From IMG/VR virus record IMGVR_UViG_3300028577_000006: a stretch of DNA of 64,000 nt. One strand, given 5' to 3'. This document shows positions 25,592 through 59,587 of this stretch, piece after piece (positions within the stretch are counted from its first letter, which is position 1; each line of letters opens with the position of its first letter). Both the position numbers and the translations under genes were made by a program. The notes beneath the pieces are model-generated. The model made no database searches, was not told the origin of the DNA, and saw nothing but the letters and a program-made list of their open reading frames with translations. Source of the DNA: a virus (lineage: Duplodnaviria > Heunggongvirae > Uroviricota > Caudoviricetes).

Positions 25592-25673
25592 TGCCGGCTA
25601 CTGGAATCGAACCAATGCACCCCGAAGGGAAGCGCGGTTACAGCGCGCAGAACGTCCATCGTTCACAACCGGC
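25592..25673 (-). tRNA. tRNA-Tyr (anticodon GUA), class II (bacterial type)
   Basis: D GAAC-GATGGAC-GTTC, anticodon stem GCGCG/CGCGC loop CTGTAAC, long extra arm TTCCC-TTCG-GGGTG. Confidence 0.85.
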
Positions 25674-25675
25674 AG

Positions 25676-27135: not shown

Positions 27136-28283
27136 ATGATCTGCTTGAGCTTCTCGTGGATCGTCACGAGGTCAGCCTGGTTGGCCATGACCTGGTCGAT
27201 GTCCTTGTACGACATGGGGATCTCGTCGAGCACGCTGCTGTCCTTGCGGCACTCGACGCCCGCTGTCGCTGACGCAAGATCGTCGAGCGTGAACGTTCGC
27301 TTCGCTTCGCCGCGCGACATGCGGCGGCCGGCGCCGTGTGATGCCGAATGGAACGACTCCGGGTTGCCGAGGCCCTTCACGATGTACGAGCACGTTCCCA
27401 TCGAGCCCGGGATGATGCCCCACTCGCCTGCGCGCGCCGAGATCGCGCCCTTGCGTGTGACGATAACGTCCTCGCCGAAGTGGCACTCGTGGCTGACGTA
27501 GTTGTGGTGACAGGAGATCGGCTCGAAGAATGCCACTCCGGGTACCATCGAACGCAAAACATCCTGGTAGATGACAAGCATCACCTGACGATTCTCCTTC
27601 GCGTATCGCTGCGCCCATTCCAAATCGTGAACGTAGGCCGCCATCTCTGGCGTCTTCGAAAGAAACACGGCGAGATCACGGTCCGGAAGAAGGGCGTTGT
27701 GTGCGAGCTTCTTCGCTCGCTTGATGTGGATCTCGGCCAGGCACTTTCCGATGTTGCGTGAGCCCGAATGCAGCATCATCCACACGTGATCGTGTGAATC
27801 CAGGCACAGCTCGATGAAGTGGTTCCCGCCGCCGAGCGAGCCCATCTGCTTCATCGCCGTGCCGTACTTGTCCGCCACGCTCTCGTCAAGATCCTTGAAG
27901 CTCGCCCAGAGTGCCGACTTACGCGCGCTCTTGTGCATCGAGTCGTGTCCGTTCGGACCAAGCGGAATCACCTCTTCGATCTTCGACCGAAGATCTTTCA
28001 GCGAATCCGGAAGATGGTGCGACGTCATGTTGGTCTCGACCGCCAGCATGCCGCAGCCGATGTCAACTCCCACGGCAGCGGGCGAGAGCGCGTCCTTCAT
28101 CGCGATCACCGAGCCGACGGTCGCGCCCTTCCCGAGGTGCACGTCTGGCATGACCGCGACGTGCTTGAACGCCCACGGAAGCGCAGCGATGCCCTTCAGC
28201 TGATCGATCGCAGCCGACTCTACCTCGTGTCGGTTCGCCCACATCTTGATGGGAACCACCTTGCCCTGAAGCTCGTCGATCAT
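27120..28283 (-). CDS. rtcB: RNA-splicing ligase RtcB (3'-phosphate/5'-hydroxyl RNA ligase)
   Basis: 387 aa; metal-binding His/Cys-rich motifs (GGNHFIE, HSGSRN, AHNA) typical of RtcB. Confidence 0.9.
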   Translation of the reverse strand: MIDELQGKVVPIKMWANRHEVESAAIDQLKGIAALPWAFKHVAVMPDVHLGKGATVGSVIAMKDALSPAAVGVDIGCGMLAVETNMTSHHLPDSLKDLRSKIEEVIPLGPNGHDSMHKSARKSALWASFKDLDESVADKYGTAMKQMGSLGGGNHFIELCLDSHDHVWMMLHSGSRNIGKCLAEIHIKRAKKLAHNALLPDRDLAVFLSKTPEMAAYVHDLEWAQRYAKENRQVMLVIYQDVLRSMVPGVAFFEPISCHHNYVSHECHFGEDVIVTRKGAISARAGEWGIIPGSMGTCSYIVKGLGNPESFHSASHGAGRRMSRGEAKRTFTLDDLASATAGVECRKDSSVLDEIPMSYKDIDQVMANQADLVTIHEKLKQIMCVKG

Positions 28284-30543: not shown

Positions 30544-30547
30544 GGCT

Positions 30548-31030
30548 CTAGCTCCAGTCGACTTGTAGGCCCCAGCAGGTCTTGACATCGTAGACCTTGC
30601 GAAGAGCAGAGAGTTCTTCGGGGAACTGCCCCTCGAACAACGCCATCTCCGCCTCACGGTCCACGCCGGCCAGATCTACGTGATGGCTCGCGCCTCTATC
30701 TCCGTTCAGCCTCAAGCCGACCGAGCCTCGGATGTTCGGTACGAAGTAGACGACGTCCTCGTCCTCGTCATCACGGATCGACGACAGGCGCTCGCTCTCG
30801 CCGAGCGCTTCGTGCGGCGACGGTCGACCCTTCACCAGCTTCGTCGTCTTGCCTGTCGCAGTGCCACACGTGGCGCAGAACGACGAGAGCGCAGCCTGCA
30901 TCCAGGTCTCGCGCTTCTTCCACTGCGCACACTTCGAGTTCGTGCACCCGTACACATCTACCTCGCGCTCGCTTGGCTCTGCGGTCGCCTCGGCATACGG
31001 CCCGACGTACATGCTCATGTAGAGACCCAT
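30548..31030 (-). CDS. hypothetical zinc-ribbon protein
   Basis: CTNSKC ... CATCG Cys pairs; start uncertain (GTG 31057 or ATG 31030). Confidence 0.4.
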   Translation of the reverse strand: MGLYMSMYVGPYAEATAEPSEREVDVYGCTNSKCAQWKKRETWMQAALSSFCATCGTATGKTTKLVKGRPSPHEALGESERLSSIRDDEDEDVVYFVPNIRGSVGLRLNGDRGASHHVDLAGVDREAEMALFEGQFPEELSALRKVYDVKTCWGLQVDWS

Positions 31031-41896: not shown

Positions 41897-42676
41897 TCAA
41901 TAGTTGAACACGACCTGATGGAGCGTGTTCGTGCCGCCGCCTGCGCGGTTCAACGACTGACCAGTGCCGCCGTTTGGCAACACGCCAGGTGCCGCCGGCT
42001 CGACCGCCGTAGCGCTCCACAGGTCTGTCATGCCCGGCGCCGCGACCACCTGCTGCTGCTGCTTCACATTCGCGAACCAGTCCTGGATGTCGCTCTGGGT
42101 GAGATGCCCGGTGCCGCCCACCAAGCCGTTGAAGATGCCCTGGATCGTCAACGGCCTCGTCGCAGCCACGTAGGTCGGACCGCTGAGCGATGAGTACGGA
42201 TTATTCTGAAGTGGCAGTCCATCGATCCACACCTGGAACACGGAGCCAGGGGCGCTCGGATTTGGGTACACGGACACGAGGCCCACGGTCACCGTGACGC
42301 CCGGAAGATACGGCTGGAGCACGCCAACAGAGCGAGCGCTCGGATTCGCCGGGTCGGTGAGCAAGAGCCCATCGATTGCATTCGTCGGGTTGACGTTGAC
42401 GATCGTAAACTCGTTGTCGATGTCAATCGACTGGTCTTCGTACTCGATGAAGATGCCGCTCGTGTTCACGACCTGAGCGTCGACTGACGAAGGCCCGCTG
42501 CCGAGGGCAACGAAGCCGAACCAGAACGGTGGCGGACCGTGCGTGAACGACGGAGATGCCGCAGTGGCGTTGTACGTCGCGTTCAAGAACCACATGCCGA
42601 CAGGAGGCTGCTGGGCGAATCCGCCGGAACGGCGTTTCCATCCAGATTTCCAGAGCATTCCTTTCGATGCGGTCAT
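41897..42676 (-). CDS. structural-like protein (beta-rich, Asn/Thr/Gly-rich)
   Basis: composition typical of tail/fiber-like proteins. Confidence 0.5.
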   Translation of the reverse strand: MTASKGMLWKSGWKRRSGGFAQQPPVGMWFLNATYNATAASPSFTHGPPPFWFGFVALGSGPSSVDAQVVNTSGIFIEYEDQSIDIDNEFTIVNVNPTNAIDGLLLTDPANPSARSVGVLQPYLPGVTVTVGLVSVYPNPSAPGSVFQVWIDGLPLQNNPYSSLSGPTYVAATRPLTIQGIFNGLVGGTGHLTQSDIQDWFANVKQQQQVVAAPGMTDLWSATAVEPAAPGVLPNGGTGQSLNRAGGGTNTLHQVVFNY

Positions 42677-42803: not shown

Positions 42804-43490
42804 TCACGTACCACCCTTGCTCAAACGGTTGAGGATCCTGTCCATCTGCAACTCGGGAATCAAGAACCCGTTGATCTCGACCGACAGCAGCTTGGTCTCG
42901 AACGGGGGGGCGCGCAGCGCCGTAACCGTCGCCTCGATCGTCTGGCCTGGCCGCACGTACGATGCGAACGACTGTAGGCCAAGCTGCGACGGGCCTGCGA
43001 ACGGGTAGAAGCTGCCCTGTCCTGGCGTCGGAGGATAGACCGTCTGCGCGCCCTTGCCAGCGTTGACGACAACAGGGTCGCCGTTCGACGTGAGATTCGT
43101 AGAGAAGTCCGTTGTGCCGCGGCCACCGACCTTGAGCGAGAAGCCGAATACGGTGGTCAGGCGCGAAAGAGGAACTTCCTCGACGTCTTTTGGATCGATG
43201 CCCGTGTTCTGGTAGACGCGAAACGTCGAGTTCTGAAGAACGATGACGGCCTCTTGTGGAGCCTGGATCTTGAGCACGGGGATCGCGCGCGGATACGGCG
43301 GCGCACCCTGGATCGCCACCGGGATCGGATAGTTGGCGAAGAACGCGCGCTGGAAGAACGTCAGCTGCTGCGACGGCAGGAACTGGAAGTACGCGTCCTG
43401 CACCTGGACGGGCGTCACCGCGATCGCGATTTCTTCCTGCGGAAGCGGCGAGCTTCCCTGACTGTTCAAGAGCGCTGGACGGCCACGCAT
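42804..43490 (-). CDS. structural-like protein
   Basis: 228-aa ORF, Pro/Gln/Phe-rich. Confidence 0.5.
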   Translation of the reverse strand: MRGRPALLNSQGSSPLPQEEIAIAVTPVQVQDAYFQFLPSQQLTFFQRAFFANYPIPVAIQGAPPYPRAIPVLKIQAPQEAVIVLQNSTFRVYQNTGIDPKDVEEVPLSRLTTVFGFSLKVGGRGTTDFSTNLTSNGDPVVVNAGKGAQTVYPPTPGQGSFYPFAGPSQLGLQSFASYVRPGQTIEATVTALRAPPFETKLLSVEINGFLIPELQMDRILNRLSKGGT

Positions 43491-43856: not shown

Positions 43857-44786
43857 TCAGACCGCCGGGCTCTCGGCCTGGAGGATCTTGTAGCCACACA
43901 TGGTGAAGTAGATCGTACCACCGATGGCGACGGGCACGCGACCCACGTCTCCGGTTGCTGCCGGATCTGGCGCTGGCGTCTGATCGCCCTCGGCGAAGCC
44001 GTTCGGCAGCGTTGCGTAGTTGACCTCGGCGAACCCGAGGTCATGCATCAGCGTCATCTTCCACGTCACCGTGGAGCCGCGCTCGAAGAAGTCGCCCACC
44101 GGAAGGTAGAGCGGCCGATCGAACTCGGAGAAGATGTAGCGCGAAGGCATCGGGATCTGGTTCTGACGGTTTCGGTTCGAACCGTTGTCCTGGATCTCGA
44201 AGAGATAGTCGATCTCACCAGGCCGGAACGTCTGCACCGCCTGTGCGCCAGCGATCGAGATCGGACCGACCTGCGCGCCGATGTACGCGCCCGAGAATGG
44301 ATCTGCCGTCGAAGCGACTGGACGAAAGCGTCCCGACAGCGGCGTGATGACCTCGGTACCGGCCGGCGGATCGTTCGGGCGACCGCCGGTGTCTCCGATC
44401 GTGTACGGGCCGATCGAGTACGTGCGCATGAGGAACGCGCTCATGTAGCTCGTGCAGACGAACGGGCCATCCATCGAGATCTGCTTGTTGTCGACGAGCA
44501 CGGACCCGGCGAGGGTGAAGTTCGGGTCCGTGGGCCCCGGGATATCGATGCTGAAGTTGAGGAAGTACGGGACACGCTTGCCCGGGATGTCCTCGATGTA
44601 TCTGATGCGCTTGGCCGCCTTCGAGACGGAACCGCGCAGCGACTCCAACTCAGCCTTCTGAGACTCGTAGTCTCCAGTCAGCTTGTTGTAGCGCTCGTTC
44701 AGGAGCTTCTGTCGCGCGAACAGACGCTGATGCGTCTCTTCCATGGCGCGAAGTGTCTTCGTCAGCTCGGGATCGTAGTTCGGCAC
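43857..44786 (-). CDS. structural-like protein with N-terminal coiled coil
   Basis: 309 aa; coiled coil then Gly/Pro-rich beta-like domain. Confidence 0.55.
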   Translation of the reverse strand: MPNYDPELTKTLRAMEETHQRLFARQKLLNERYNKLTGDYESQKAELESLRGSVSKAAKRIRYIEDIPGKRVPYFLNFSIDIPGPTDPNFTLAGSVLVDNKQISMDGPFVCTSYMSAFLMRTYSIGPYTIGDTGGRPNDPPAGTEVITPLSGRFRPVASTADPFSGAYIGAQVGPISIAGAQAVQTFRPGEIDYLFEIQDNGSNRNRQNQIPMPSRYIFSEFDRPLYLPVGDFFERGSTVTWKMTLMHDLGFAEVNYATLPNGFAEGDQTPAPDPAATGDVGRVPVAIGGTIYFTMCGYKILQAESPAV

Positions 44787-45007
44787 TGTGAACCTTCCTT
44801 TGGCCGGCGGATTTCTCCCTGTGGCCTCGGCTGGTTATGCGCCCGCACCATGCGGGACTTCATCAGGCTCCGAATGAGCCATCGGGTCGATCGCAGATCG
44901 CCCTACATCAAACAGGAAGAAGCGCCGGCCGCGTCACCACGACCGGCGCCTTCCTCATCCATCAGCAGCACTCTCGGATCCGAATCACGCTTGCGCGTGA
45001 AGCAAGA

Positions 45008-45790
45008 TCAGAGAACGTCGCGCGAGTGGATGCCGTCGAGGACATACTTGATGTCCTTCTCGATGTCGTCCTCACCAGCGACCGAGAGGCCGGTGCCCGT
45101 CGCGGTGCCGGTCGTGAGACCGGAGCCGCTGATGATCGCGTTCGGGCTGTTGTCCGGCACGAGGCCGTTCAGCTGCTCGATTGCCGACGCGCCGGTCGTC
45201 TGACCGATCGGCGAGGCGATCGCGATCACCTGGAAGCCCTGACGGGGCGGGATGAGGATCGGACGCGCCAGGCGCATGAGCGCGCTCGACGTCGGCACGC
45301 CGTTGTTCGCGCGCGGGAGGCGCGAGTCGGCGAAGAAGCCGTCGAGACCACCGGCCATCGGGGTGTACGCGGTGAACGTCGTGAGCTGCGGCTTGTCACC
45401 AGCGACCATCTGCCAGAAGAACTGGTTCTGGGTCTGGTGGTAGAGCTTGTGCACGCGCATGACGCGGTCCGGATACACGCCGTTCACGTTGCCGATCGGC
45501 TGGGGCGCGCCCTGCGTCACGACGACCGGCGCTTCCGGGTTGAACCGGAAGTACGTCCAGACGCGCACCGCGAGGGTGATGTACGTCTGATCCGACGGGA
45601 AGAAGCCGCCCGTGGTCAGGTTCGACACCGAGATGTCGGCGCCCTGACGGACGAACAGCTGCGCGCGGTTCGGGACTGCTCCGAACACGCCCTGGTTGGT
45701 GGATCGAAGATCCACCGAACCATCGACGCGGATGAGGCTGTCGTAGAACGGCTGATGAACACGCTCGCGGGTACCAACGATCTTCGGCAT
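45008..45790 (-). CDS. putative major structural protein, paralog A (260 aa)
   Basis: SD GGAGAC-N6-ATG; 196-nt structured lower-GC upstream region; first ~100 and last ~110 aa nearly identical to paralog B. Confidence 0.6.
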   Translation of the reverse strand: MPKIVGTRERVHQPFYDSLIRVDGSVDLRSTNQGVFGAVPNRAQLFVRQGADISVSNLTTGGFFPSDQTYITLAVRVWTYFRFNPEAPVVVTQGAPQPIGNVNGVYPDRVMRVHKLYHQTQNQFFWQMVAGDKPQLTTFTAYTPMAGGLDGFFADSRLPRANNGVPTSSALMRLARPILIPPRQGFQVIAIASPIGQTTGASAIEQLNGLVPDNSPNAIISGSGLTTGTATGTGLSVAGEDDIEKDIKYVLDGIHSRDVL

Positions 45791-45986
45791 TGTCTTGTCT
45801 CCGAGTTTCCGGGGCCACCCTAGGGTTTATTCCCCCGGAAACGACAGCACTCCACTCGGTGCCTATCCACTGGTTTGTTGCGACGACCCTCCCTTGCGGG
45901 TTTAGATCGTCTCTGCGTTCCGAAACCTCTCAGCGGTAAGAGGCTTTCACCCGTCAGCTACCGGAACGCAGAGAATCTTGTTGCGA

Positions 45987-47483
45987 CTACAGGACATCCC
46001 TCGAATGGATGCCGTCCAGGATGTACTTGACGTCCTTCTCGATGTCGTCTTCACCGGGGACCGAGAGACCGGTGCCGGTGCCGAACCCGGTCGTGAGACC
46101 GGAGCCGCTGATGATCGCGTTCGGGCTGTTGTTCGGCACAAGGCCGTTCAGCTGCTCGATGACCGACGAGCCAGTCGTCTGGCCGGTGGGCGAGGCGATG
46201 GCGACAACTTGGAAGCCCTGACGGGGCGGGATGAGGATCGGACGCGCCAAGCGCATGAGCGCGCTCGACGTCGGCACGCCGTTGTTCGCGCGCGGGAGGC
46301 TGTTGCCATTCGCGCCGCCGAACCCGGAATCCGTCGCCGCGCCAGGCGCAGCCGGATCGAACGGATCGAGCTGAAGCTGGTTGTCGTCGAACGTCACCGA
46401 CGCGGACTGAGCGAACGCGCGACCAGTCAGCGTTGCTGCATGGGCGAAAGTGACAGTCGTAGCGGCGATGAGGTTGCCCTGCATCGACGCAGTCGTGTTG
46501 ACCGTGATGGCACCGGTCGACGTGAAGTAGACGTTGTGTGCGCGTGCTCCGTTGACCAGAACGATTTGTGCAGCGGGGCCGACCGTGAATGCACCGAGCT
46601 GGAAGACGAACGTGGCATTCGGATTGCCACCGCCATTCAGCGTGAGAACACCTGCGCCAGCAGTCAAAGAGCTGGCGCCGTGGAAGTATACGCCTGGTGC
46701 GAACGTGAGTCCACCAAGTTCCGCAGCGCCAGTGTTGGTTCCAGACAGGGCGTTGAGCGCTGGCACCGCGACCGCGGACAGGTAGGTCTGTGCCGCCGTG
46801 GCAAGGCCATCGGCATCAACGAAGCCAGTCACGACACCGGGCGGGAATCCGGTGATCGTCGGGCTGGTTGGTCCGACACCAATGTTGCCACCAATCGTGG
46901 TTCCAGCAGCAACGACGTTTGTGACGCCGGCCGATCCTAGCACGATGAACTGTGCTGCGGGGCCCAAAAATGGATCGTTCTGAATCGCTCCGGCCGCACC
47001 TGGCCTCGCAACACCGTTGCCGGCGAAGTAGCCATCGAGACCACCAGCCATCGGGGTGTACGCGGTGAACGTCGTGAGCTGCGGCTTGTCACCAGCGACC
47101 ATCTGCCAGAAGAACTGGTTCTGGGTCTGGTGGTAGAGCTTGTGAACGCGCATGACACGATCACGCGGCGCGCCCGGGATCGTGCCAATCGGCTCTGGCA
47201 ATCCCCGCTGCACCGTGACCGGCGCTTCCGGGTTGAACCGGAAGTACGTCCAGACGCGCACCGCGAGGGTGATGTACGTCTGATCCGACGGGAAGAAGCC
47301 GCCCGTGGTCAGGTTCGACACCGAGATGTCGGCGCCCTGACGGACGAACAGCTGCGCGCGGTTCGGGACTGCTCCGAACATGCCCTGATTGGTGGATCGA
47401 AGATCCACCGAACCATCGGTGCGGATGAGGCTGTCGTAGAACGGCTGATGAACACGCTCGCGGGTACCAACGATCTTCGGCAT
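45987..47483 (-). CDS. structural protein paralog B (498 aa) with inserted ice-binding-like (DUF3494) beta-helix domain
   Basis: shares MPKIVGTRERVHQPFYDSLIR...NPEAPV N-term and LPRANNGVPTSSALMRLARPILIPPRQGF...DGIHSRDVL C-term with paralog A; central ~240 aa with LGSAGVTNVVAAG...NVYFTSTGAITVNTTASMQGNLIAATTVTFAHAATLTGRAFAQSASVTFD. Confidence 0.65.
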   Translation of the reverse strand: MPKIVGTRERVHQPFYDSLIRTDGSVDLRSTNQGMFGAVPNRAQLFVRQGADISVSNLTTGGFFPSDQTYITLAVRVWTYFRFNPEAPVTVQRGLPEPIGTIPGAPRDRVMRVHKLYHQTQNQFFWQMVAGDKPQLTTFTAYTPMAGGLDGYFAGNGVARPGAAGAIQNDPFLGPAAQFIVLGSAGVTNVVAAGTTIGGNIGVGPTSPTITGFPPGVVTGFVDADGLATAAQTYLSAVAVPALNALSGTNTGAAELGGLTFAPGVYFHGASSLTAGAGVLTLNGGGNPNATFVFQLGAFTVGPAAQIVLVNGARAHNVYFTSTGAITVNTTASMQGNLIAATTVTFAHAATLTGRAFAQSASVTFDDNQLQLDPFDPAAPGAATDSGFGGANGNSLPRANNGVPTSSALMRLARPILIPPRQGFQVVAIASPTGQTTGSSVIEQLNGLVPNNSPNAIISGSGLTTGFGTGTGLSVPGEDDIEKDVKYILDGIHSRDVL

Positions 47484-48112
47484 CAGCCACCACCCATCTG
47501 GCCTGAGAACAGCTGACGCGCGAACACGCCACCCGCGTAGCCGTGATCGGCCGCCGCGAACGGCGTCGTCACCTGCTTGATCTGAGCTTCGTTCTTCGCG
47601 CGGAACGCCAGGTCCCTCGGGATGATCGTCGAGACGCCTGGCGGCTGGGGAAGGTATCCCAATCCGAGCATACCCTGATACGGAGCACCGTAGTGAGCGA
47701 CATCGACCAGCGGGTCAGAAAGCCCAGACACGTTGCTGGGAGTGAGCGTGGGCGACGAGGTCATCGTCGCAGACGACGGAGCCGTCTGAACGACATTCGG
47801 CAAGAACGGCGTGATCGCCGCGATGCCCATGCCGGTCGCGAGTGCCTGGCTGATCTCGTCGGACATGCCGACGCCACCGCCCATGGTCACGGCAACCGCA
47901 CCACCAGCCGCGCCGGTGATGAGCAGAAGCATCTTCGGGTCCAGAGTCGGAAGTAGACGCTGGGTGACGTTGGAGGTCAGCCACGAGGTAAGCAGAATGC
48001 CGCCTGCGCCAACGAGTGCAGGCACGACGAGACGCTCGATGACGCCGAATCCGGCACCTTCTGCGTTCCGACGAAGCCTGTTGCGGCGTGAGCGACGGTT
48101 CTGCTTCCTCAT
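47483..48112 (-). CDS. hypothetical structural-like protein with RSRRNR N-terminal tail
   Basis: MRKQNRRSRRNRLRRN; C-terminal GGVFARQLFSGQMGGG shared with next gene. Confidence 0.5.
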   Translation of the reverse strand: MRKQNRRSRRNRLRRNAEGAGFGVIERLVVPALVGAGGILLTSWLTSNVTQRLLPTLDPKMLLLITGAAGGAVAVTMGGGVGMSDEISQALATGMGIAAITPFLPNVVQTAPSSATMTSSPTLTPSNVSGLSDPLVDVAHYGAPYQGMLGLGYLPQPPGVSTIIPRDLAFRAKNEAQIKQVTTPFAAADHGYAGGVFARQLFSGQMGGG

Positions 48113-48140
48113 GACCTACTCCAGTGTTCGGACGGGTCGC

Positions 48141-49151
48141 TCAGAACATGCCGGCGAAGAGGTTGCGGGCGAAGAGGCCGCCTGCGAATCCCTTGCCTTC
48201 CGGCGTGACGAGCGAGGTCGGGATCGCGACGTCGCGGGGCATGATCTTCGAAACCGGGACGGCTCCGTCGGTCGGCGTCTGGGTCGAAACCCATGGCGGC
48301 TGGTTCTTCGCGTAGAACTTCGAGAGGGTGGAGTCGGCTTCCTGGCCGAGACCCGCCGCTGCGTAGTACGACGCGTCGCCGAGACCCGACATCGGCTGAT
48401 CGACGTACTCGCCGACGCCAGCGGCTGCTTCCATCGGAGTGCCGGCCGCGGCCTCCATCACGTCCATGAGGCCATCGACGCCCTCCTGGTTGGCAGGGTC
48501 GATGCCCTCCTGGTAGCCGGCCGCCGCGTAGAACGTCTGGCCCATGCCAGCCGCCGCGTAGTACGTGTCAGATCCCATGCCGTGCGTGGGATCGTTGACG
48601 TACGCGCCGAGGCCGCTCATCGGCTGGTCGACGTACTCGCCGAAGCCGCTCATCGGCTGATCGACGTACTCGCCGAGGTACGGCAAGAGCGCCGTACCGC
48701 GAAGCAGACGTGCGAAGAGCGCGAGGCCCATGCCCGTCAGGATCGGCGCGACGTTGTCCGTGACGATGTTCTTGTGACCCGCGCGGCTCGCCCACGTGGC
48801 GACTCCGAGGGCACCCGCGACAAGCGCGGCGTTCACGACGCTCTTCGTGGCGAGCGCCTGGTCCGCCGTCTGGCCGGTGTTCAGGACGCCACGAACCTGA
48901 TCGTTCATCGCGGCTGCGTTCGAGAGACCGTTCGCCGCGAGGAAGCCCGCCGTCGCCCAGCCTGCCGGCATGGCGATGTCCGTGAGCAAGTCCTTGCCGT
49001 AGAGCTTGAAGAAGTTCCGGCGGAGCCGGCCCTTCCGCGCGCCCTTGCGGTTCGGCTTGAGGATCACGTAGTTCGGGTTCTTCTTGCTGTGACGGCTCTT
49101 CTTGCTGTGACGACGCTTGTGCTTGCGGCCCATCGACTGCCTCCTGTTCAT
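48141..49151 (-). CDS. hypothetical structural-like protein with basic N-terminus and GEYVDQPMSG repeats
   Basis: N-terminal KKNPNYVILKPNRK; three GEYVDQPMSG repeats; C-terminal GGLFARNLFAGMF. Confidence 0.5.
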   Translation of the reverse strand: MNRRQSMGRKHKRRHSKKSRHSKKNPNYVILKPNRKGARKGRLRRNFFKLYGKDLLTDIAMPAGWATAGFLAANGLSNAAAMNDQVRGVLNTGQTADQALATKSVVNAALVAGALGVATWASRAGHKNIVTDNVAPILTGMGLALFARLLRGTALLPYLGEYVDQPMSGFGEYVDQPMSGLGAYVNDPTHGMGSDTYYAAAGMGQTFYAAAGYQEGIDPANQEGVDGLMDVMEAAAGTPMEAAAGVGEYVDQPMSGLGDASYYAAAGLGQEADSTLSKFYAKNQPPWVSTQTPTDGAVPVSKIMPRDVAIPTSLVTPEGKGFAGGLFARNLFAGMF

Positions 49152-49183
49152 TTTTCCTGGCGGACTTGTTCGCGAACCGCCGA

Positions 49184-50614
49184 CTACTTCGCCTTGCGCG
49201 ACGTGCGCTTGTGCTTTGCCTGGAGCGACCGAGCGAGTTCAGGACCCCACTTGCCTCGCTTGGAGTGAGCGCGACGAGCAACCCCACCGAAGGTGAAGTG
49301 ACGCGTGTAGCCCGGGAGACGCTTGCCACCGACGAGAACCGTCGACTTCCTGGACGTGCCCGGCCTGTAGAGGACGGTCTGCGTGGATCCGGTCAGGAAG
49401 TTCGGGCGCGAGCGACGACGACGCGAGCTGCGACGCGAAGCGCGCTTGCGGCGGCTGTTGCGGCGCGACCGGCGCTTGCGGCTGTTGCGACGTGCGCGGC
49501 GCGACGTGCGACGACGGCTGTTCCGGCGCGAAGCACGCTTCGAGCCACGGCGACGCGAGTTGCGACGTGCGCGGCGCGACGTGCGCTTGCGGTTCGGGAT
49601 GATGAAGTAGTTCGGGTTCCGGCGCGACGTGCGACGACGGCTGTTCCGGCGCGAGTGACGACGAGCATTCGCGGCCATCTCACCAGCGAGCGGTGAGCCG
49701 TACATGTGGAACGCAGACCGGAAGGTCGGCGATCCAGACACGTGCTTCTTGGAAGCGCGCTTCTTGGAGCGGCGCTTCTTGGAAGCCTTCTTGGAGGCGC
49801 CCTTCTTCGAAGCCCGGGCTCGGGCCTTGCTACCCTTCTTGGAGGCGTTGCGGCGCGAGGTGCGCTTGCGGCTGTTGCGGCGGGCGCGGCGCGACGTGCG
49901 ACGACGGCTGTTGCGACGAACGCGGCGGCGCGGGTTGCGCGACGCACGCTTGCGGCGGCTGTTCCGGCGAACGCGACGGCGCGGACGATTGCGGCGCGAG
50001 GTGCGCTTGCTGCGGCGGCTGTTCCGACGCGACGCTCGGCGACGCGATGCTCGGCGACTGTTCCGGCGCGACGTGCGACGACGGCTGTTGCGGCGCGAAG
50101 CGCCCTTGCTGCGGTGGCTGTTGCGACGGGCGCGGCGCGACGTGCGACGACGGCTGTTGCGACGAACGCGGCGGGCGCGGCGGCTGTTGCGACGGGCGCG
50201 GCGCGACGTGCGACGACGGCTGTTGCGACGAACGCGGCGGGCGCGGCGACGCGGGTTGCGGCGCGAGGCGCGCCTCGAACCACGACGACGACGCGAGTTG
50301 CGACGAGCCCGGCGACTTCCGCGGCGGCGACTGTTCCGACGCGACGTACGACGACTCCGGCGGCTGTTCCGACGAACGCGGCGATGCGCGTTGCGGCGCG
50401 AGACCCGGCGACGCGATGCTGGACGCGAGTTCTTGCGCGAGCGACGGCGACGGCGACCACCGATGCCGTTCGCGACGATCGCCATCAGACCGCCGCGCTT
50501 GCGACGAATCTTCGCAGTACCGGGAGCCGGGCGCGACGTACGCTTGTGCTTCCGGCGACGACGACCAGCGTTGCTGCGCATCGCAGCACGCATACCGGGG
50601 AGATTGTATGCCAT
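49184..50614 (-). CDS. protamine-like arginine-repeat protein (476 aa; ~25 copies of RRNSRRRTSRRA-type units)
   Basis: internal ATG 50614 with SD GGAGGAAGAG; frame chosen because its motifs (RTSRR, NPNYFIIPNRK) match tails of neighbouring proteins; region is open in 4 frames. Confidence 0.5.
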   Translation of the reverse strand: MAYNLPGMRAAMRSNAGRRRRKHKRTSRPAPGTAKIRRKRGGLMAIVANGIGGRRRRRSRKNSRPASRRRVSRRNAHRRVRRNSRRSRRTSRRNSRRRGSRRARRNSRRRRGSRRASRRNPRRRARRVRRNSRRRTSRRARRNSRRARRVRRNSRRRTSRRARRNSHRSKGASRRNSRRRTSRRNSRRASRRRASRRNSRRSKRTSRRNRPRRRVRRNSRRKRASRNPRRRVRRNSRRRTSRRARRNSRKRTSRRNASKKGSKARARASKKGASKKASKKRRSKKRASKKHVSGSPTFRSAFHMYGSPLAGEMAANARRHSRRNSRRRTSRRNPNYFIIPNRKRTSRRARRNSRRRGSKRASRRNSRRRTSRRARRNSRKRRSRRNSRRKRASRRSSRRRRSRPNFLTGSTQTVLYRPGTSRKSTVLVGGKRLPGYTRHFTFGGVARRAHSKRGKWGPELARSLQAKHKRTSRKAK

Positions 50615-50898
50615 CGAACTCTTCCTCCGCCTTGGGTTCTGACCAGGGTGTTGCTGCGATCGGGAACGTGCCCTGACCGCGGACGTGAACAGGCCCGCTC
50701 GTCGAGAAGGACGACCCGGATTGAGAACCGCCAGAGTCGTCACGCCACCGGGATTCGGTGCCATGCCAGGCGTACGGTCGTATGACCGCGCTGCCTTCTC
50801 TGTCGATCTCCGATATACAAGGGTCATTTCAGACGCACGTCTCCCGTGCGACCGACCCCGTAGCGGAGAGAGAGCAAGCGCCCTCGGTCTTCGAGAGA

Positions 50899-55369: not shown

Positions 55370-56596
55370 TCAGTTCGCCGCCTTTCGATGGGCGCGGTGA
55401 TGAGCGATGCCCCTGCGCTTCGACGACTGCGTCGCGAGCCAGGTGGACTGCATCCCGTACTTCTTCCACACCGCTGGGTAGTGCCTCAGGATGAACGTTC
55501 GGATCGCCATGTAGTCGCTCGCGTTGCGCACGCGGCCCATCTTCATGTACGAGATCGCATCGCGAGCGCCCTTCGCGCTCTCGATCGGCCAAGCGCGGTC
55601 CTTCGGGAAGACGAACTTCGAGTTGGGAAGCTTCGATCGACGCTTGCCGGAGAGACGCGGATTGCGTGCGATGCCGTTATGACGGGCAAGGCCGCGACGC
55701 GCACGGCTCCGGACCGGACCGCCCTTCGAGACCCAGACTCGATTTGACGACTTGAACCATCGCTCCAAACCATGGTCGACCATGACCGAGTCGCCGTTGC
55801 CGTTCTTCTTCTTGAACTCCTGCCAACCGAACACGCCATCGCGCTGCCAAAAGCGACTTCCAACCCCAACCGATCCAAAGCCGGTCTCTTTCCACGGCGC
55901 ACCGCGCTGCCAATCCGGCGGCGGGTTTCTCCGACTGGCGCGCTTGCGCGAACTGCGTCGAGCACGGCGCGCACGACGTGACGTGCGCTTGCGCGACGAG
56001 CGCTTGCTCTTCCGGCTCGTGCGCTTGGCGCGGCTGCGACCGTTGCGCGCCGGGCCCGGCGACTTGATGTAGAACGTCTGGTTCGGGCGGCTCGACCGAC
56101 GACGACGGTTCTTCGAGATGGGCGGGATCGGGATGTAGAACGTCTGGTTCGCGCGCGAGCGGCGGCGCGCGCGATTCGCCACGACCTTCACGACCTTCTC
56201 CTTCAGGTCGCGATCGACCTCGGTCACCTTCACTGGGCTACGGCCCTTGTGGAGATCTTGATGATGCTTCGCCACACGCATCGCCACAGCCTTGCCGAAC
56301 GGCCCGCGCACGACGCCACCCGCATGCACGTAGAAGCGCTGAGCGCTGCCCGCGCGAATCTGCTGCGTCCAGTAGTCCTCCGGGTTGCGGCGACTGCTCC
56401 GACGCGGCCGGCCGCGCGAGTCGTACGACCCAGGGTGCGACATGCCGTAGTCGTAGTTCGTGTTCCGGCGTGACGTGCGCTTCGAACGCGACCGGCGCTT
56501 GCCCTTCAAGCCTCGCGATGCGCGACGGCTGTAGCCGTTCTTCCTCGACGTCCTCTTGCGTGAGTGACGCTTCTTCCTGCTGGTTCGCTTCGCCAT
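55370..56596 (-). CDS. hypothetical protein with long RTSRK-rich N-terminal region
   Basis: MAKRTSRKKRHSRKRTSRKNGYSRRASRGLKGKRRSRSKRTSRRN. Confidence 0.5.
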   Translation of the reverse strand: MAKRTSRKKRHSRKRTSRKNGYSRRASRGLKGKRRSRSKRTSRRNTNYDYGMSHPGSYDSRGRPRRSSRRNPEDYWTQQIRAGSAQRFYVHAGGVVRGPFGKAVAMRVAKHHQDLHKGRSPVKVTEVDRDLKEKVVKVVANRARRRSRANQTFYIPIPPISKNRRRRSSRPNQTFYIKSPGPARNGRSRAKRTSRKSKRSSRKRTSRRARRARRSSRKRASRRNPPPDWQRGAPWKETGFGSVGVGSRFWQRDGVFGWQEFKKKNGNGDSVMVDHGLERWFKSSNRVWVSKGGPVRSRARRGLARHNGIARNPRLSGKRRSKLPNSKFVFPKDRAWPIESAKGARDAISYMKMGRVRNASDYMAIRTFILRHYPAVWKKYGMQSTWLATQSSKRRGIAHHRAHRKAAN

Positions 56597-56607: not shown

Positions 56608-58240
56608 TCAGCGCTTGGAGCGCGAACGACGCTTGCCCTTGAGACCGCGCGACGCCTTGCGACGCCAGCCGTTCTTGCGTGACCGGCGATTCGCCGTCGA
56701 CTTTGCTGCGGACTTCGAGGCCGCCGTCTTCGGCTTCCTCGTCACCATGTAGATGATGCCGCCGACGGTGACGACGCCAACCGCCGCCATCACCGGCCAG
56801 TACCAGCTGGTGGTCGTGTCGGTGTACGCCGTGGCGGGCACGGCCGCGGTCGTTGCTGCCGGGGTCGTCGCTGCCGACTGGCCCTGCGTGCCCGCGATGA
56901 TGCTTCCGGCAACACTGCCCGCGGTCGTGAGCGCGGTACCCCAGTCCTGCGCCGTGTGATCAGGCTGCGATACCGTCTTGGTCACCTGACCAAGCCCGAT
57001 GCGAGCGTCGCGCCTGCCAGCGAAGTAGCTTCCTGGATTCGACGCGATCAGAGCCCGCAGCGCCGCAGGGCTCATTCCCGGATCTGCGCCCATGCCGACC
57101 ATCCGGCCAGCGAAGTAGCTGCTCGGGTGCTTCGCGATGATCGAGCGGAGACGTGAGGCGTCGATGCTTGGTGCTGCGCCGAGGCCTGCCATCGTTCCCC
57201 TGCCGGCGAAGTAGCTGCCCGGGTGCTTCGCGATGTGCGCACGCAGCGCTTCAGCGCTCATGCCGCTCAGGCCTGCCATCGTTCCCCTGCCGGCGAAGTA
57301 GCTGCCCGGGTGCTTCGCGATGTGAGCGCGGAGCGCTTCAGCGCTCATGCCAGAACCTGTCGGTGCCCTGTAACTCATAGCGTTCTCCCTGCCGAGACCC
57401 GTGTACCCACCGAGACCAACAACGGCGGCCTTCGGAATCGTGACGCTCTGCGCCGCCGCGCGGATTGCCGCCGCTTGACGCTGCGCCGCCAAGGCCACGT
57501 TGTCCGTTGCTGCGCCGGTTGCATCAACGAAACTGCCAGCGTTCCGAAGCGCCGTGCCCCATGGCGTGATCCCCAACGACGTGAGACCGTAGTTCCGCAC
57601 CGTGTCACGCTGAAGCGGAATCGGGACGCCCTCTGGACGGGGCGCCGTGAGACCGTAGTTCCGCACCGTGTCACGCTGAAGCGGGATCGGAAGGCCCTCG
57701 GGACGGGGCGCCATGAGGCCGACGAGCGTGTCGCGCACAATGCGCTCCTGCGTCCTGCCGGCGGCTCGGCCCCTGCGCTCCGGCTCGTCATCCGGTCGGC
57801 ACTGATAGACACTGACGGTCGTGTAGGCGCCCGCGCCTGCGCCGCCGGTCACGGTGACGTTGCCACGCGTGTACGCGTCCGTGGAAGTGCTCGTTGGTGA
57901 GCGAACTTCGGTGCTGGTCGACGTCGATGTCGGGCTTCGGACCTCGGTGCTGGTCGACGTCGATGTCGGGCTTCGGACCTCGGTGCGCGTCGGGCTGCTG
58001 TCGTTCGAGTTGCCGCGCGTCGGGCTGCTGTCGTTCGAGTTGCCGCGCGTTGGGACGAGCGGCAGCACGGCTGGCACTGCACGCACGGTCGGCACCGCCG
58101 GAACTGCTGGCACGGCCGGTACCGCCGGAACCTGGCCGAGCCCCAGCATTCCGAAGAACCGACGGACGGCATCGCCGCGCTGCGGTTGACGCACGATGAC
58201 AGTTCGCGCTGGACGCTGGATCGGTGCCCTGTAGCTCATG
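56608..58240 (-). CDS. repeat-rich protein (544 aa; MSYRAP N-terminus, four ~27-aa MSAEALRAHIAKHPGSYFAGRG repeats, C-terminal TM + basic tail)
   Basis: internal ATG 58240 overlapping upstream stop (ATGA); upstream part of annotated 780-aa ORF is antisense-like Arg/Ala-rich. Confidence 0.5.
56990..57360. repeat. tandem DNA repeats (~66-81 nt units, about four copies) encoding the HIAKHPGSYFAGR repeats
   Basis: two perfect adjacent copies around 57180-57310 plus degenerate flanking copies. Confidence 0.6.
57900..58050. repeat. short tandem repeats (36-nt x2 and 33-nt x2) encoding TEVRSPTSTSTS and TRGNSNDSSP repeats
   Basis: direct repeats seen in sequence. Confidence 0.5.
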
Positions 58241-58922
58241 ACCTTCTCCCTGCCCGGCGGCGCCGGCCATTCTTCTTGCTTCGATTGCTGGTCACCGCTC
58301 GGCGACGATAGAAGTAAAACGCGACGCCACCCAGAAGCAGCGCGCCTGCGGCAACGCCGCTCGCGACCAGTACCGTCTGCATCGTCGCGGCGGCGGCGGC
58401 CGTCTGCTCTGACGGCTGCGCGCCGGTACTCGACTGCACTGCGACGCCTGCCGGCGGCGCGGGCGGCGGCGGAACCGAGCCGGTCGGGTACACGTACAGA
58501 TCTGTGCGACCCATCGGCATGTTCACGCGGAACCGTCGCATGATGATCTGCGACTGCGGACTGATGCGCAGCGCACCCTGAAGCAGCGCATCGCGCAGCT
58601 GCGTCGCGTACGAGATCGCAGGCGCATTCGCATTCGGACGCCACTTCGCGTAGACGTAGCCGCCGGTAACCCAGCGCACGTCGTCGACCGAGTTGCCGAG
58701 CGCCGTGAGCGTGTTGCGCACGTTGTCGAGCACGCTCAACGCGGCCTGTTCCGCGGTGATGTTGACCACCGAAAGCGTCGCATCGAGCCACGGCACCGTC
58801 GCCGCGAGCGGAGGCATGTACACGTACGAGCCAACGACGAATGCGTTCACGTCGCTGTTGTTGACAGACGGCACCGGGCTCGGCGTCGTGCCGGCCAGCG
58901 CGAGTGGAGCGCGGTAGCTCAT
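58236..58922 (-). CDS. hypothetical protein (MSYRAP N-terminus; C-terminal TM + RRRR tail)
   Basis: internal ATG 58922, ATGA overlap with upstream stop. Confidence 0.45.
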   Translation of the reverse strand: MSYRAPLALAGTTPSPVPSVNNSDVNAFVVGSYVYMPPLAATVPWLDATLSVVNITAEQAALSVLDNVRNTLTALGNSVDDVRWVTGGYVYAKWRPNANAPAISYATQLRDALLQGALRISPQSQIIMRRFRVNMPMGRTDLYVYPTGSVPPPPAPPAGVAVQSSTGAQPSEQTAAAAATMQTVLVASGVAAGALLLGGVAFYFYRRRAVTSNRSKKNGRRRRAGRRS

Positions 58923-59587
58923 CGTGTCCTCTGACGGCGGCGACGCGCACGGCGACGGCGTGAGCGTGGGTTGTTGAGCAACGCTGCCGGACTGAAGGCG
59001 CGCGCGGTGCGTCCTACCGACGAGATCATCCAGGCTCCGAGTCCGAGCACAACGATGCCGCCAGCTCCGACCACGCCCCATACCCACATCGGCTGGCCGA
59101 AAAGCAGCCGATCTGGATGCGTCTGATCGACGGGGGCGATTCCAGAAGCGCGCGGCTGCTGTCCGGTGATCGCCGTGTAGCGCTGTTCGAAGGCGTTGTA
59201 TCGACCGGCATCTTCGCGAGCGGTCGTGACCGGCGTGGCGCTCGACCCCGACGGCCACGCGTCGTGGTACGTCTGCCAGTGCGCGAGGAACGACGTCTTG
59301 AACGGGGCGTATTCCTGCCGCAGCTGTGCGCCAGCGCCGGAGTTCGGCACATTCGCGTTGATGTCCTGATCCAGCTGCGAGACCGCGTTCAAGATCGAGT
59401 TGTAGAACGTCGAGATGTCACCACTCGACCAGATCGTGTAGTCGGGAATCGTGAGCGCACCCATGCCCGACGTTGGCGTCTGATCGACTCCAACGGTGTC
59501 CCAACGGCGTGGACCCGACACAGGCAAGATCCGAGTCCTGCTGGTCAAGAACCCGCTGCCGTTGATCTGCGGCGCGCGGTAGCTCAT
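58919..59587 (-). CDS. hypothetical protein (MSYRAP N-terminus; C-terminal TM + RRRARRRR tail)
   Basis: ORF; ATGA overlap with upstream gene. Confidence 0.45.
   Translation of the reverse strand: MSYRAPQINGSGFLTSRTRILPVSGPRRWDTVGVDQTPTSGMGALTIPDYTIWSSGDISTFYNSILNAVSQLDQDINANVPNSGAGAQLRQEYAPFKTSFLAHWQTYHDAWPSGSSATPVTTAREDAGRYNAFEQRYTAITGQQPRASGIAPVDQTHPDRLLFGQPMWVWGVVGAGGIVVLGLGAWMISSVGRTARAFSPAALLNNPRSRRRRARRRRQRTR

What the first reader, a model, noticed from the sequence alone, without database searches (positions are those of the whole stretch)
45008..47483. Duplicated major structural gene; one copy carries an ice-binding-like (DUF3494) beta-helix insertion
The two genes share almost identical N-terminal ~100 aa and C-terminal ~110 aa. 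The DNA of the shared parts is about 90 to 99 percent identical, indicating recent duplication or gene conversion. The 498-aa copy has a ~240-aa central insertion with the signature of bacterial ice-binding-like adhesin/decoration domains (..NVYFTSTGAITV..GRAFAQSASVTFD). Paralog A is preceded by a 196-nt structured lower-GC leader (10-bp hairpin at 45812-45848) typical of a very highly expressed capsid or tail gene.
Basis: partly seen in the sequence, partly recalled or inferred. Interest (0 to 1): 0.6.

Follow-up and report, generated by a model that had tools for sequence, protein, structure and literature searches.

The report
Duplicated jelly-roll virion protein, ice-binding insert
A huge uncultivated phage carries two tandem copies of its most conserved, most codon-optimised small jelly-roll protein, and one copy has a foreign "ice-binding-like" beta-helix spliced into an exposed loop, which probably puts a sticky domain on the particle surface; the protein resembles capsid proteins of tailless membrane-containing viruses, not those of tailed phages.

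Summary
Two minus-strand genes (45008-45790, 260 aa; 45987-47483, 498 aa) share a 155-aa N-terminal and a 103-aa C-terminal core. The long copy has a 240-aa insert that matches Pfam Ice_binding/DUF3494 end to end (E=3e-36) and solved ice-binding proteins. An independent contig, 99.1% identical, carries the same tandem, so it is not an assembly artefact. Synonymous divergence is mosaic (0.015 to 0.77), which indicates gene conversion with purifying selection.

The gene sits in a module conserved even in 25-30%-identical relatives, beside membrane proteins with Arg-rich tails. No terminase, portal, HK97 or tail family was found in about 47 kb of this operon, but over half of the 260-300 kb genome was not seen.

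Most relatives have one copy. Insert-bearing variants, including a different Cys-rich insert at the same loop, have a second copy alongside wherever the contig reaches far enough.

Best reading: an abundant shell protein plus a minor surface-display paralog. A conserved structured leader RNA, absent from Rfam, precedes the base copy.

The parts
45008..45790 (-). Short ('base') copy, 260 aa: jelly-roll core protein of an unannotated, highly conserved family.
45987..47483 (-). Long ('display') copy, 498 aa: the same core with a 240-aa insert. Its ATG overlaps the stop of the upstream membrane-protein gene (ATGA).
   Evidence: The identical protein is found on the independent contig L001.
46299..47018 (-). 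Inserted segment (long-copy residues 156-395) between GGLDGYFA and LPRANNG. The Ice_binding/DUF3494 domain proper is 46374-46943.
   Evidence: Pfam PF11999 E=3.2e-36, full profile. PDB ice-binding proteins match at E down to 1e-24. GC3 is 0.66 and codon adaptation 0.52, against 0.81-0.89 and 0.71-0.80 in the flanks, which points to a foreign origin.
47217..47483 (-). Recent gene-conversion tract (first 267 nt of the long copy). Its partner in the short copy is 45524-45790.
   Evidence: 98.5% nt identity and dS 0.015 against 0.18-0.77 elsewhere. A megahit assembly breaks inside both copies of this tract.
45791..45986 (-). Conserved structured leader RNA of the base copy. It has a three-way element at ~45911-45973, a loop (CCGCUG) that may pair with CAGUGG downstream, further hairpins including ~45806-45841, and a GGAG Shine-Dalgarno at 45799-45802.
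   Evidence: Fold z=-3.0. Alignment of 10 lineages. RNAalifold gives 27 pairs, 18 of them compensatory. Pair counts: 87% paired, 18 pairs changed on both sides, 0 of 500 shuffles reach this, and slid controls are far lower. No Rfam match.
44920..44951 (-). Terminator-like 14-bp GC-rich hairpin followed by a U-rich tail, 57 nt after the stop of the short copy.
   Evidence: Consensus scan only.
47483..49151 (-). Two paralogous membrane/basic proteins (209 aa at 47483-48112; 336 aa at 48141-49151). They have basic N-termini, hydrophobic segments, GEYVDQPMSG repeats and a conserved C-terminus GG(L/V)FAR(N/Q)LF. They are always found upstream of the jelly-roll gene.
   Evidence: Sequences. jackhmmer links them to each other across all loci. 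Hydropathy. The same arrangement is seen in remote relatives L022, L025, L036 and L038.
49184..50827 (-). 547-aa protamine-like protein, 42% Arg+Lys, made of RRxSRR repeats. In most relatives it is fused to the 336-aa protein as one ~900-aa ORF.
   Evidence: for example L010 6345-9077; L003 6096-8318.
43857..44786 (-). 309-aa protein with an N-terminal coiled coil and a beta-rich domain. It is the conserved downstream partner of the jelly-roll gene.
   Evidence: 60-87% identical across lineages with no annotation. The remote versions are 208-273 aa, which is too small for an HK97 fold.
42804..43490 (-). 228-aa beta-rich protein, the fourth conserved member of the module.
   Evidence: hhalign finds no significant relation to the jelly-roll family.

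Best explanation
The 260-aa protein is the abundant jelly-roll shell protein of the virion of an uncultivated huge-phage lineage. I read it as a capsomer-forming, vertical single-jelly-roll protein in the manner of SPV1 VP4. It would sit over an internal membrane whose proteins carry Arg-rich, DNA-facing tails.

In this genome the gene has been duplicated in tandem. The upstream copy received a horizontally acquired DUF3494 (ice-binding-like) beta-helix in an exposed loop of the jelly roll. In the family alignment this site is flanked by two hypervariable loops, and in other lineages it accepts unrelated inserts.

The N- and C-terminal core that would make the lattice contacts is kept nearly identical by gene conversion. 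The long protein can therefore take the place of a base subunit in the same lattice and project the beta-helix outward as a 'tower'.

Expression would be asymmetric:
- The base copy has its own conserved structured leader, a good Shine-Dalgarno, top codon adaptation and a terminator-like hairpin.
- The long copy has no leader and is translationally coupled to the upstream membrane-protein gene.
- The long form should therefore be the minor species.

The displayed domain most likely acts as an adhesin, for ice, exopolysaccharide or cell surfaces. It holds particles where hosts are.

Shown: the duplication, the insert and its family, mosaic divergence, the jelly-roll fold prediction, module conservation, leader covariation.

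Inferred: virion location, lattice co-assembly, stoichiometry, adhesive function, internal membrane.
For: - Fold: the AF2 model with a diverse alignment has pLDDT 78.
[quoted passage not shown] HCIV-1 and HHIV-2 build capsomers from a base-only and a tower-bearing jelly-roll protein (PMC6414509).
- Constraint and expression: homologues are at least 70% identical across hundreds of clusters. The short copy is the top-ranked ORF for codon adaptation. A group I intron with a homing endonuclease sits in the orthologue of L003.
- Exposed loop: the Ice_binding insert and unrelated Cys-rich inserts in P0130 and P0136 lie at the same site.
- Paired copies: insert-bearing genes lie in tandem with a second copy in the window, L001, L005/L006 and L039.
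- Both copies are functional: dN/dS is about 0.1-0.2, with a conversion mosaic.
- Neighbourhood: the four-gene module is conserved in 25-30%-identical relatives. Many operon proteins are a hydrophobic segment plus an RRxSRR tail.
- No tailed-phage hallmarks: no terminase, portal, HK97, sheath or baseplate family in the ~47-kb operon with Pfam, PHROGs or NCBIfam.
Against: - Every known prokaryotic virus above 100 kb is tailed with an HK97 capsid. This genome is at least 259 kb, with relatives up to 298 kb.
- More than half of the genome was never seen, so hallmark genes may lie elsewhere.
- No FtsK/HerA-type packaging ATPase and no Walker A motif was found in the main window ORFs examined.
- There are no proteomic or imaging data.
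Confidence: 0.4

Rival explanations
1. This is a cement, decoration or turret protein on the HK97-type head of a tailed jumbo phage. The jelly-roll protein coats a conventional capsid, and the long paralog is the display variant of that decoration layer. The duplication-and-display mechanism is the same as in the best explanation. Only the underlying capsid differs.
For: - Prior: all known huge phages are tailed. The genome has a tRNA array, RNA-repair genes and anti-defence genes like other jumbo phages.
- The 774-aa neighbour has homologues in tailed jumbo phages.
- Decoration genes often sit next to capsid genes (general knowledge, e.g. lambda D and E).
Against: - No HK97, portal, terminase or tail family was found anywhere in ~47 kb of the operon, or in roughly 60 kb of other sequence looked at.
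- The adjacent conserved protein shrinks to 208 aa in relatives, too small for an HK97 fold.
- Known jelly-roll cement proteins are about 110-140 aa and score lower than the capsid proteins.
- The module is dominated by membrane proteins with Arg-rich tails, which tailed-phage heads lack.
Confidence: 0.3
2. The protein is not in the virion shell. It is a nucleoplasmin-like oligomeric beta-sandwich chaperone that handles the neighbouring protamine-like Arg-rich proteins during condensation or decondensation of phage DNA, and the long copy is a variant of unknown use.
Against: - The protein has no acidic tracts (8% Asp+Glu), which is what nucleoplasmins use to bind basic proteins.
- The nucleoplasmin matches cover only ~85 residues.
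- Hypervariable loops and tolerance of large foreign inserts at one loop fit an exposed surface, not a chaperone.
- A secreted-type adhesin domain makes little sense inside the cell.
Confidence: 0.1
3. The protein is a receptor-binding or fibre-tip protein with a TNF-like jelly roll, and the two paralogs are alternative host-recognition modules.
Against: - Receptor-binding proteins are among the fastest-evolving phage proteins. This family is the most conserved gene seen (at least 70% identity across lineages; invariant N- and C-termini).
- It is a single short protein with no shaft or anchor domain.
- It has the top codon adaptation, which implies high copy number.
Confidence: 0.07
4. The tandem is an assembly artefact, or the long copy is a decaying pseudogene.
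For: A near-identical 267-nt repeat is the kind of sequence that confuses assemblers, and one assembly breaks there.
Against: - An independent strain-level contig has the same structure.
- The long ORF is intact, with dN/dS of 0.1-0.2 in the unconverted core.
- Homologous long forms occur in other lineages and samples: P0121 on three contigs, and P0206.
Confidence: 0.02

Closest known systems
SPV1 VP4 (Portogloboviridae; PDB 6oj0), a single-jelly-roll major capsid protein
   Different: There is no detectable sequence similarity (8-9% identity). SPV1 has a 20-kb genome and infects a hyperthermophilic archaeon. This element is at least 259 kb, is bacterial in style (operons, Shine-Dalgarno sites, a muramidase/SLT in relatives, Tad2-like genes) and carries 37 tRNAs. 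The protein here is 80 residues longer, with a long helix and three large loops. Capsomer formation was not tested.
The two-protein capsids of HCIV-1/HHIV-2 (VP7 base plus VP4 tower) and Thermus phage P23-77 (VP16 plus VP17)
   Different: In those viruses the two proteins are old, very divergent paralogs, and both are obligatory. Here the pair is recent, is homogenised by gene conversion and is optional, since most relatives have one copy. The tower is a foreign beta-helix inserted in a loop, not a second jelly roll. No FtsK/HerA-type packaging ATPase was found nearby.
DUF3494 / IBP-1 ice-binding proteins (e.g. EfcIBP 6eio, SfIBP_1 6bg8, IBPv 5uyt)
   Same: The insert matches the whole Pfam model and the solved proteins. 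It is 44-46% identical to free-standing family members, one of which ends in an LPNTG sequence that I read as a sortase motif, so is probably a cell-surface protein.
   Different: The known members are secreted or surface-anchored proteins with the domain at a terminus or in tandem. Here the domain is an internal insertion in a loop of a phage jelly-roll protein, with no signal peptide. Ice binding was not tested, and many family members come from habitats that do not freeze.
Phage capsid decoration proteins that display adhesive domains (T4 Hoc with Ig-like domains; jelly-roll cement proteins of KHP40 and Pam1)
   Different: Those proteins bind on top of an HK97 lattice and are dispensable single-copy genes. 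Here the displayed domain is built into a paralog of the lattice-type protein itself, and no HK97 capsid gene was found.

Membership tests
Pfam PF11999 Ice_binding (DUF3494, IBP-1 fold), for the insert | Full-length match to the family HMM above the curated gathering score | tested here: met
   125.4 bits against a cutoff of 28.7, profile positions 1-207 of 208, E=3.2e-36. The same holds for the homologous long protein P0121.
Pfam PF11999 Ice_binding (DUF3494, IBP-1 fold), for the insert | Sequence relationship to experimentally solved IBP-1 structures | tested here: met
   phmmer against the PDB hits 25 ice-binding or DUF3494 chains. The best is 6eio at E=1.3e-24, covering residues 167-371.
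Pfam PF11999 Ice_binding (DUF3494, IBP-1 fold), for the insert | Right-handed beta-helix with an alpha-helix alongside, seen in a structure or model of this protein | not tested
The alignment that included the insert (A2) was misaligned and was not used.
Pfam PF11999 Ice_binding (DUF3494, IBP-1 fold), for the insert | Ice-binding activity (thermal hysteresis or inhibition of ice recrystallisation) | not testable with these tools
   Needs the expressed protein.
Vertical single-jelly-roll major capsid proteins (Portogloboviridae; Sphaerolipoviridae and relatives) | Eight-stranded jelly-roll fold most similar to those capsid proteins | tested here: inconclusive
Vertical single-jelly-roll major capsid proteins (Portogloboviridae; Sphaerolipoviridae and relatives) | Forms (pseudo)hexameric capsomers standing normal to the capsid surface | not testable with these tools
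   No multimer prediction or particle data were available.
Vertical single-jelly-roll major capsid proteins (Portogloboviridae; Sphaerolipoviridae and relatives) | Membrane-protein genes in the same module (internal membrane) | tested here: met
   Hydrophobic segments occur in the 209-aa protein and in the 498-, 531- and 732-aa operon proteins, each with basic tails. That they lie in a virion membrane is an inference.
Vertical single-jelly-roll major capsid proteins (Portogloboviridae; Sphaerolipoviridae and relatives) | FtsK/HerA-type packaging ATPase near the capsid genes (Sphaerolipoviridae; not SPV1) | tested here: not met
   No P-loop family was found in the ~47-kb operon with Pfam, PHROGs or NCBIfam, and there is no Walker A motif in the main window ORFs examined. 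The rest of the genome was not seen.
Vertical single-jelly-roll major capsid proteins (Portogloboviridae; Sphaerolipoviridae and relatives) | Small genome (about 16-45 kb in described members, from my own knowledge; 20 kb for SPV1 in PMC8459092) | tested here: not met
   Contigs carrying identical or related genes are 133-298 kb.
HK97-fold major capsid proteins of tailed phages | HK97 fold or a match to capsid HMMs | tested here: not met
Phage tail-tube proteins | Tail-tube fold or family match | tested here: not met
   No such hit in any library or fold search.
Jelly-roll cement/decoration proteins of HK97 capsids | Small jelly roll that binds an HK97 lattice encoded by the same genome | tested here: inconclusive

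The most novel reading that the evidence does not exclude
These 130-300 kb elements may be the first huge bacterial viruses that are not tailed HK97 phages. Their particles would be built from a single-jelly-roll shell protein (this family) over an internal membrane. The membrane proteins would reach the DNA with RRxSRR tails, and the genome would be condensed by protamine-like proteins rather than packed by a terminase. The long paralog would be a lineage-specific tower that decorates this shell with an ice-binding-like adhesin.
Probability: 0.25. Interest if true: 0.95.

Novelty: new variant of a known kind. Interest (0 to 1): 0.7.

Why it matters
There are three reasons.

1. It defines a widespread protein family with no annotation: 86 clusters at 50% identity and hundreds at 90%. 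The family is the best-conserved and best-expressed gene of a whole lineage of huge environmental phages. It looks like the capsid protein of tailless membrane-containing viruses, not of tailed phages. If that holds, the rule that all large prokaryotic viruses are tailed would fall.

2. It shows a simple evolutionary route to surface display. The steps are to duplicate the lattice protein, drop a foreign domain into its exposed loop, and keep the contact surfaces matched by gene conversion. The same route, with a different insert, is seen in a distant relative.

3. As far as my searches show, a DUF3494 domain on a phage particle has not been described. It bears on the open question of what this very common 'ice-binding-like' domain does outside cold habitats.

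The conserved leader RNA is a further new regulatory element that can be tested directly.

Tried and rejected
- The first AF2 run, with 27 close homologues, gave pLDDT 52 and was discarded.
- An alignment meant to model the long copy (A2) placed the free-standing ice-binding proteins on the core instead of on the insert, so it was not used.
- Sequence searches of the core against the PDB, GenBank phages, PHROGs and Pfam found nothing.
- tblastn of the 780-, 408- and 966-aa neighbours against GenBank phages found nothing.
- phmmer of the 865-, 498- and 732-aa operon proteins against the PDB found nothing.
- hhalign between the jelly-roll family and the 309-aa and 228-aa families was not significant, so they cannot be called paralogs by sequence.
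- I considered the 309-aa neighbour as an HK97 capsid protein with an N-terminal scaffold domain, which would make the jelly roll a lambda-D-like decoration. I rejected this as unlikely because the remote orthologues are only 208-223 aa.
- The profile search with the 309-aa family returned only unannotated close relatives.
- I walked along the 297,749-bp IMG/VR contig: five of the six viral-contig scans spent on walking. This reached the start of the operon and then replication and other non-structural genes, but no packaging or tail genes.
- The scan of species genomes gave only three short mis-binned contigs in Phycisphaeraceae, Deltaproteobacteria and Acidobacteriota MAGs, so there is no usable host call.
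- Seven literature searches found no description of this family, of DUF3494 on phage particles, or of huge jelly-roll phages.
- The AFDB fold library was unavailable.
- The pseudoknot count on alignment A5 failed because the window row is offset by one column. The pairing was read by eye instead.
- The claim that all phage inserts are closer to each other than to cellular ones did not hold. Window-P0206 is 60% identical, but window-P0121 is 44%, the same as to free-standing proteins.
Full report
**The observation**

- BLASTP gives 88% identity over residues 1-160 and 76% over the C-terminal ~130.
- At the DNA level the first 267 nt are 98.5% identical, nt 322-465 are 95%, the next 211 shared nt are 93% and the last 90 nt are 82%. 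There is one divergent loop in between.
- The long copy has 240 extra residues (156-395; window 46299-47018) between GGLDGYFA and LPRANNG.
- Residues 181-370 match Pfam PF11999 Ice_binding (DUF3494) over the whole profile, at 125 bits and E=3.2e-36.
- The same stretch hits 25 solved ice-binding or DUF3494 chains. The best is 6eio at E=1.3e-24.

**The tandem is real**

- A JGI contig from another sample (L001, 6,106 bp) spans both copies. It is 99.1% identical to the window, with 54 mismatches.
- A megahit assembly of a further sample ends one contig at window ~45,664 and starts the next at ~47,276. These positions are inside the two copies of the 267-nt repeat.

**How the two copies evolve**

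Synonymous divergence is a mosaic:
- 0.015 in codons 1-89;
- 0.19 in codons 108-155;
- 0.18 in the first 70 shared C-terminal codons;
- 0.77 in the last 29 codons.

dN/dS is about 0.1-0.2 outside the converted tract. This is what an old duplication looks like when it is repeatedly homogenised by gene conversion, with both copies under purifying selection.

The insert looks foreign. Its GC3 is 0.66 and its codon adaptation is 0.52, against 0.81-0.89 and 0.71-0.80 in the flanking core. The short copy ranks first of all window ORFs for codon adaptation, at 0.795.

**What the window is**

- It has 63% GC and carries 37 tRNA genes between 11.2 and 25.7 kb.
- It encodes RtcB, an RlaP-like nucleotidyltransferase with a LAGLIDADG domain, a Ro60/TROVE protein, an SPFH protein, a DnaJ-domain protein and Tad2-like anti-Thoeris proteins.
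- Identical or related genes sit on contigs of 133-298 kb that IMG/VR lists as viral.
- This is therefore a huge phage-like genome.
- It has almost no relatives among sequenced phages. Of the five proteins searched against GenBank phages, only a 774-aa non-structural-looking protein finds homologues, in jumbo phages.

**What the core protein is**

- The short copy has 267 homologues in the 5.8-billion-protein collection. The 120 listed are 254-290 aa and at least 70% identical, and none has a Pfam domain or an informative name.
- A profile search of 1.8 billion representatives finds 86 clusters. These include 180-265-aa relatives at 25-45% identity that keep the motifs M(P/A)K...RER.HQP, PSDQ(T/S), NNG.P, L.LA(R/K)P...P.RQ and DG...(S/T)RDV(L/Q).
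- The family alignment has two hypervariable loops, at residues ~86-107 and ~212-238.
- With the diverse alignment, AlphaFold2 gives pLDDT 78 and pTM 0.77. The fold is a beta-sandwich with one long helix.
- Foldseek against the PDB again puts SPV1 first (prob 0.98, E 7e-3, TM 0.31/0.43), then SPV1 chain Z and iridovirus/EhV capsid proteins.
- Against BFVD the top hits are also capsid proteins, among them SPV1 VP4.
- The protein is thus a jelly roll. It is not HK97-like or tail-tube-like, and its nearest known shapes are the vertical jelly-roll capsid proteins of tailless, membrane-containing viruses. The similarity is distant and does not by itself prove a capsid role.

**The neighbourhood**

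The gene is always part of one module:
1. A basic or membrane protein with GEY(V/I) repeats and a conserved C-terminus GG(L/V/I)FA. In the window this is split into the 547-aa protein with 42% Arg+Lys, the 336-aa protein and the 209-aa protein.
2. The jelly-roll protein.
3. A protein with an N-terminal coiled coil and a beta-rich domain (309 aa here).
4. A beta-rich protein (228 aa here).

The module survives in relatives only 25-30% identical, and in a minimal form of 207/208/208/205 aa (L038).

It lies in a co-directional operon of about 47 kb. I followed this operon beyond the window on an identical ENA contig and on the 297,749-bp IMG/VR contig. Many of its proteins consist of a hydrophobic segment followed or preceded by an RRxSRR-type tail.

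Pfam, PHROGs and NCBIfam were run on essentially every ORF of the operon and on the rest of the window. They return no terminase, portal, capsid, sheath, baseplate or tape-measure family. Past the operon start the genes turn to nucleases, phosphatases and a replication block. More than half of the genome was not seen, so absence is not established.

**Copy number and other inserts**

- Most relatives have a single copy (L002, L009-L018, L026, L027).
- Two copies occur in the window and L001 (long then short), in L004 (262 and 261 aa, nearly identical), in L005/L006 (a copy, a free-standing LAGLIDADG gene, then a 482-aa long form with Ice_binding), and in L039.
- In L039, from a lineage about 35% identical to the window protein, a 373-aa form has an unrelated Cys-rich insert at the same site. 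A second copy follows it 156 nt later.
- A third long form (P0206) has a core like the L002 lineage, and its insert is 60% identical to the window insert.
- The insert of P0121 is only 44% identical to the window insert. That is no closer than free-standing DUF3494 proteins, although the C-terminal linkers of all three long forms resemble each other.
- The loop after GGL.G is therefore a permissive, presumably exposed site. Where the contig reaches far enough, insert-bearing genes have a second copy of the gene beside them. In L005/L006 and L039 that second copy is cut off, so whether it lacks an insert is not known.

**The leader RNA**

- The 196 nt between the copies have GC 0.566 and fold with z=-3.0.
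- In single-copy genomes the same sequence lies between the membrane-protein gene and the jelly-roll gene.
- Ten lineages align with invariant UAGC, GAAA and UACC.CU motifs.
- RNAalifold predicts 27 pairs, of which 18 show compensatory changes.
- Pair counting gives 87% of cells paired and 18 pairs changed on both sides. None of 500 shuffles reaches this, and slid controls are far lower.
- The loop CCGCUG can pair with CAG(C/U)GG about 65 nt downstream in 8 of 10 sequences. There are double changes in L017, L027 and L009, read from the alignment. The automatic count failed on a one-column offset.
- Rfam has no match.
- In the window the long copy sits upstream of this leader and overlaps the stop of the membrane-protein gene. 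The short copy keeps the leader and a GGAG at -9, and a terminator-like hairpin follows it at 44920-44951. This predicts that the short form is made in excess.

**Interpretation**

I commit to the following, at confidence 0.4.
- The family is the abundant jelly-roll shell protein of the particle.
- The long copy is a minor paralog that fits the same lattice position through its conserved core. It projects a DUF3494 beta-helix outward, much as VP4 towers stand among VP7 subunits in HCIV-1 and HHIV-2 (PMC6414509).
- The likeliest use of the domain is adhesion to ice, polysaccharide or cell surfaces. One close free-standing relative of the insert ends in an LPNTG sequence that I read as a sortase motif, so is probably a cell-surface protein.
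[quoted passage not shown] That is the architecture this module suggests.

The main rival (confidence 0.3) keeps the same display mechanism but places the protein as a cement or turret layer on an ordinary HK97 head. It is favoured by the fact that every known huge phage is tailed. It is disfavoured by the lack of any hallmark gene in the operon and by the membrane and Arg-rich character of the module.

Three other readings score lower, for the reasons given under rivals: a chaperone for the Arg-rich proteins, a receptor-binding protein, and an artefact.

**Novelty**

The duplication with a DUF3494 insert is a new variant of a known theme, namely capsid or decoration proteins that display adhesive domains. 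The family itself, the module and the leader RNA are undescribed in every library and in the literature I could search. The larger possibility is that these are huge tailless jelly-roll viruses of bacteria. My evidence does not exclude it, and it deserves a direct test.

Noticed in passing
window 11241-25674 (- strand), plus 12049-13803, 27120-28283, 28561-30657: There is an array of 37 tRNA genes covering nearly all amino acids. It is interleaved with or flanked by RNA-repair genes: Ro60/TROVE with a vWA domain, RtcB ligase, and an RlaP-like nucleotidyltransferase carrying a LAGLIDADG domain. Pfam also found an RNA ligase and an RF-1/PCRF release-factor-like protein among the scanned ORFs.
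   Followed up: partly
window 49184-50827, 48141-49151, 55370-56596, 56608-58950; L019 1164-2657 and 5283-7478: Many operon proteins carry RRxSRR/KRTSRR repeats; the 547-aa protein is 42% Arg+Lys. These often sit next to a hydrophobic segment. A short motif recurs after basic runs (RRNPNYFII, KKNPNYVIL, SNPNYALVSN, RRNTNYDYG, NQTFYIP). The RRxS pattern looks like a kinase site, as in protamines and the HBV core tail. Its function is unknown.
   Followed up: partly
window 45791-45986; L003 8975-9186; L014, L015, L016, L017, L026, L027, L009, L002 upstream of the family gene: A conserved structured RNA of about 190 nt lies upstream of the jelly-roll gene in all close lineages. It has 18 covarying pairs and a possible loop-to-downstream pseudoknot, and it has no Rfam family.
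   Followed up: yes
L003 9187-10714 (297,749-bp contig Ga0334722_10000009); L003 10777-11835; L005 250-1185: In one relative the jelly-roll gene is split after codon 14 by an intervening sequence of about 755 nt that encodes a LAGLIDADG endonuclease. It gives a weak Rfam group I intron match (23 bits, E=0.005). A second LAGLIDADG-type ORF lies just downstream. In L005/L006 a free-standing LAGLIDADG gene sits between the two copies.
   Followed up: partly
P0130 (361 aa), P0136 (373 aa); L039 21-1763: Distant family members carry unrelated Cys-rich inserts of about 110 aa at the same loop as the Ice_binding insert. In L039 the insert-bearing gene is followed 156 nt later by a second family copy.
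   Followed up: partly
window 41897-42676 (- strand): A 259-aa beta-rich protein with very low charge lies inside the conserved module but has no homologue in any of the related loci. This makes it a candidate lineage-specific host-recognition protein.
   Followed up: no
window 49151-49184: The Arg-rich 547-aa ORF and the 336-aa membrane-protein ORF are separate here (stop codon, 32-nt gap). In most relatives they form a single ORF of 740-940 aa (L003 6096-8318, L010 6345-9077, L015 3046-5811). It is unclear whether this is a real split or a readthrough or frameshift site.
   Followed up: no
window 2623-4054; L033 12063-13494 and 19938-20681: There are three consecutive Tad2-like (anti-Thoeris) genes and a SIR2-domain gene. 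Pfam also found Fic/Doc among the scanned ORFs. This is an anti-defence/defence cluster in the early region.
   Followed up: no
L031 10738-13332 (orthologue lies beyond the window end): An 865-aa Glu/Arg/Ala-rich coiled-coil protein with Pro/Gln-rich stretches lies near the start of the operon. It could be a scaffold or a size-determining 'tape measure'. It has no match in Pfam, PHROGs or the PDB.
   Followed up: partly
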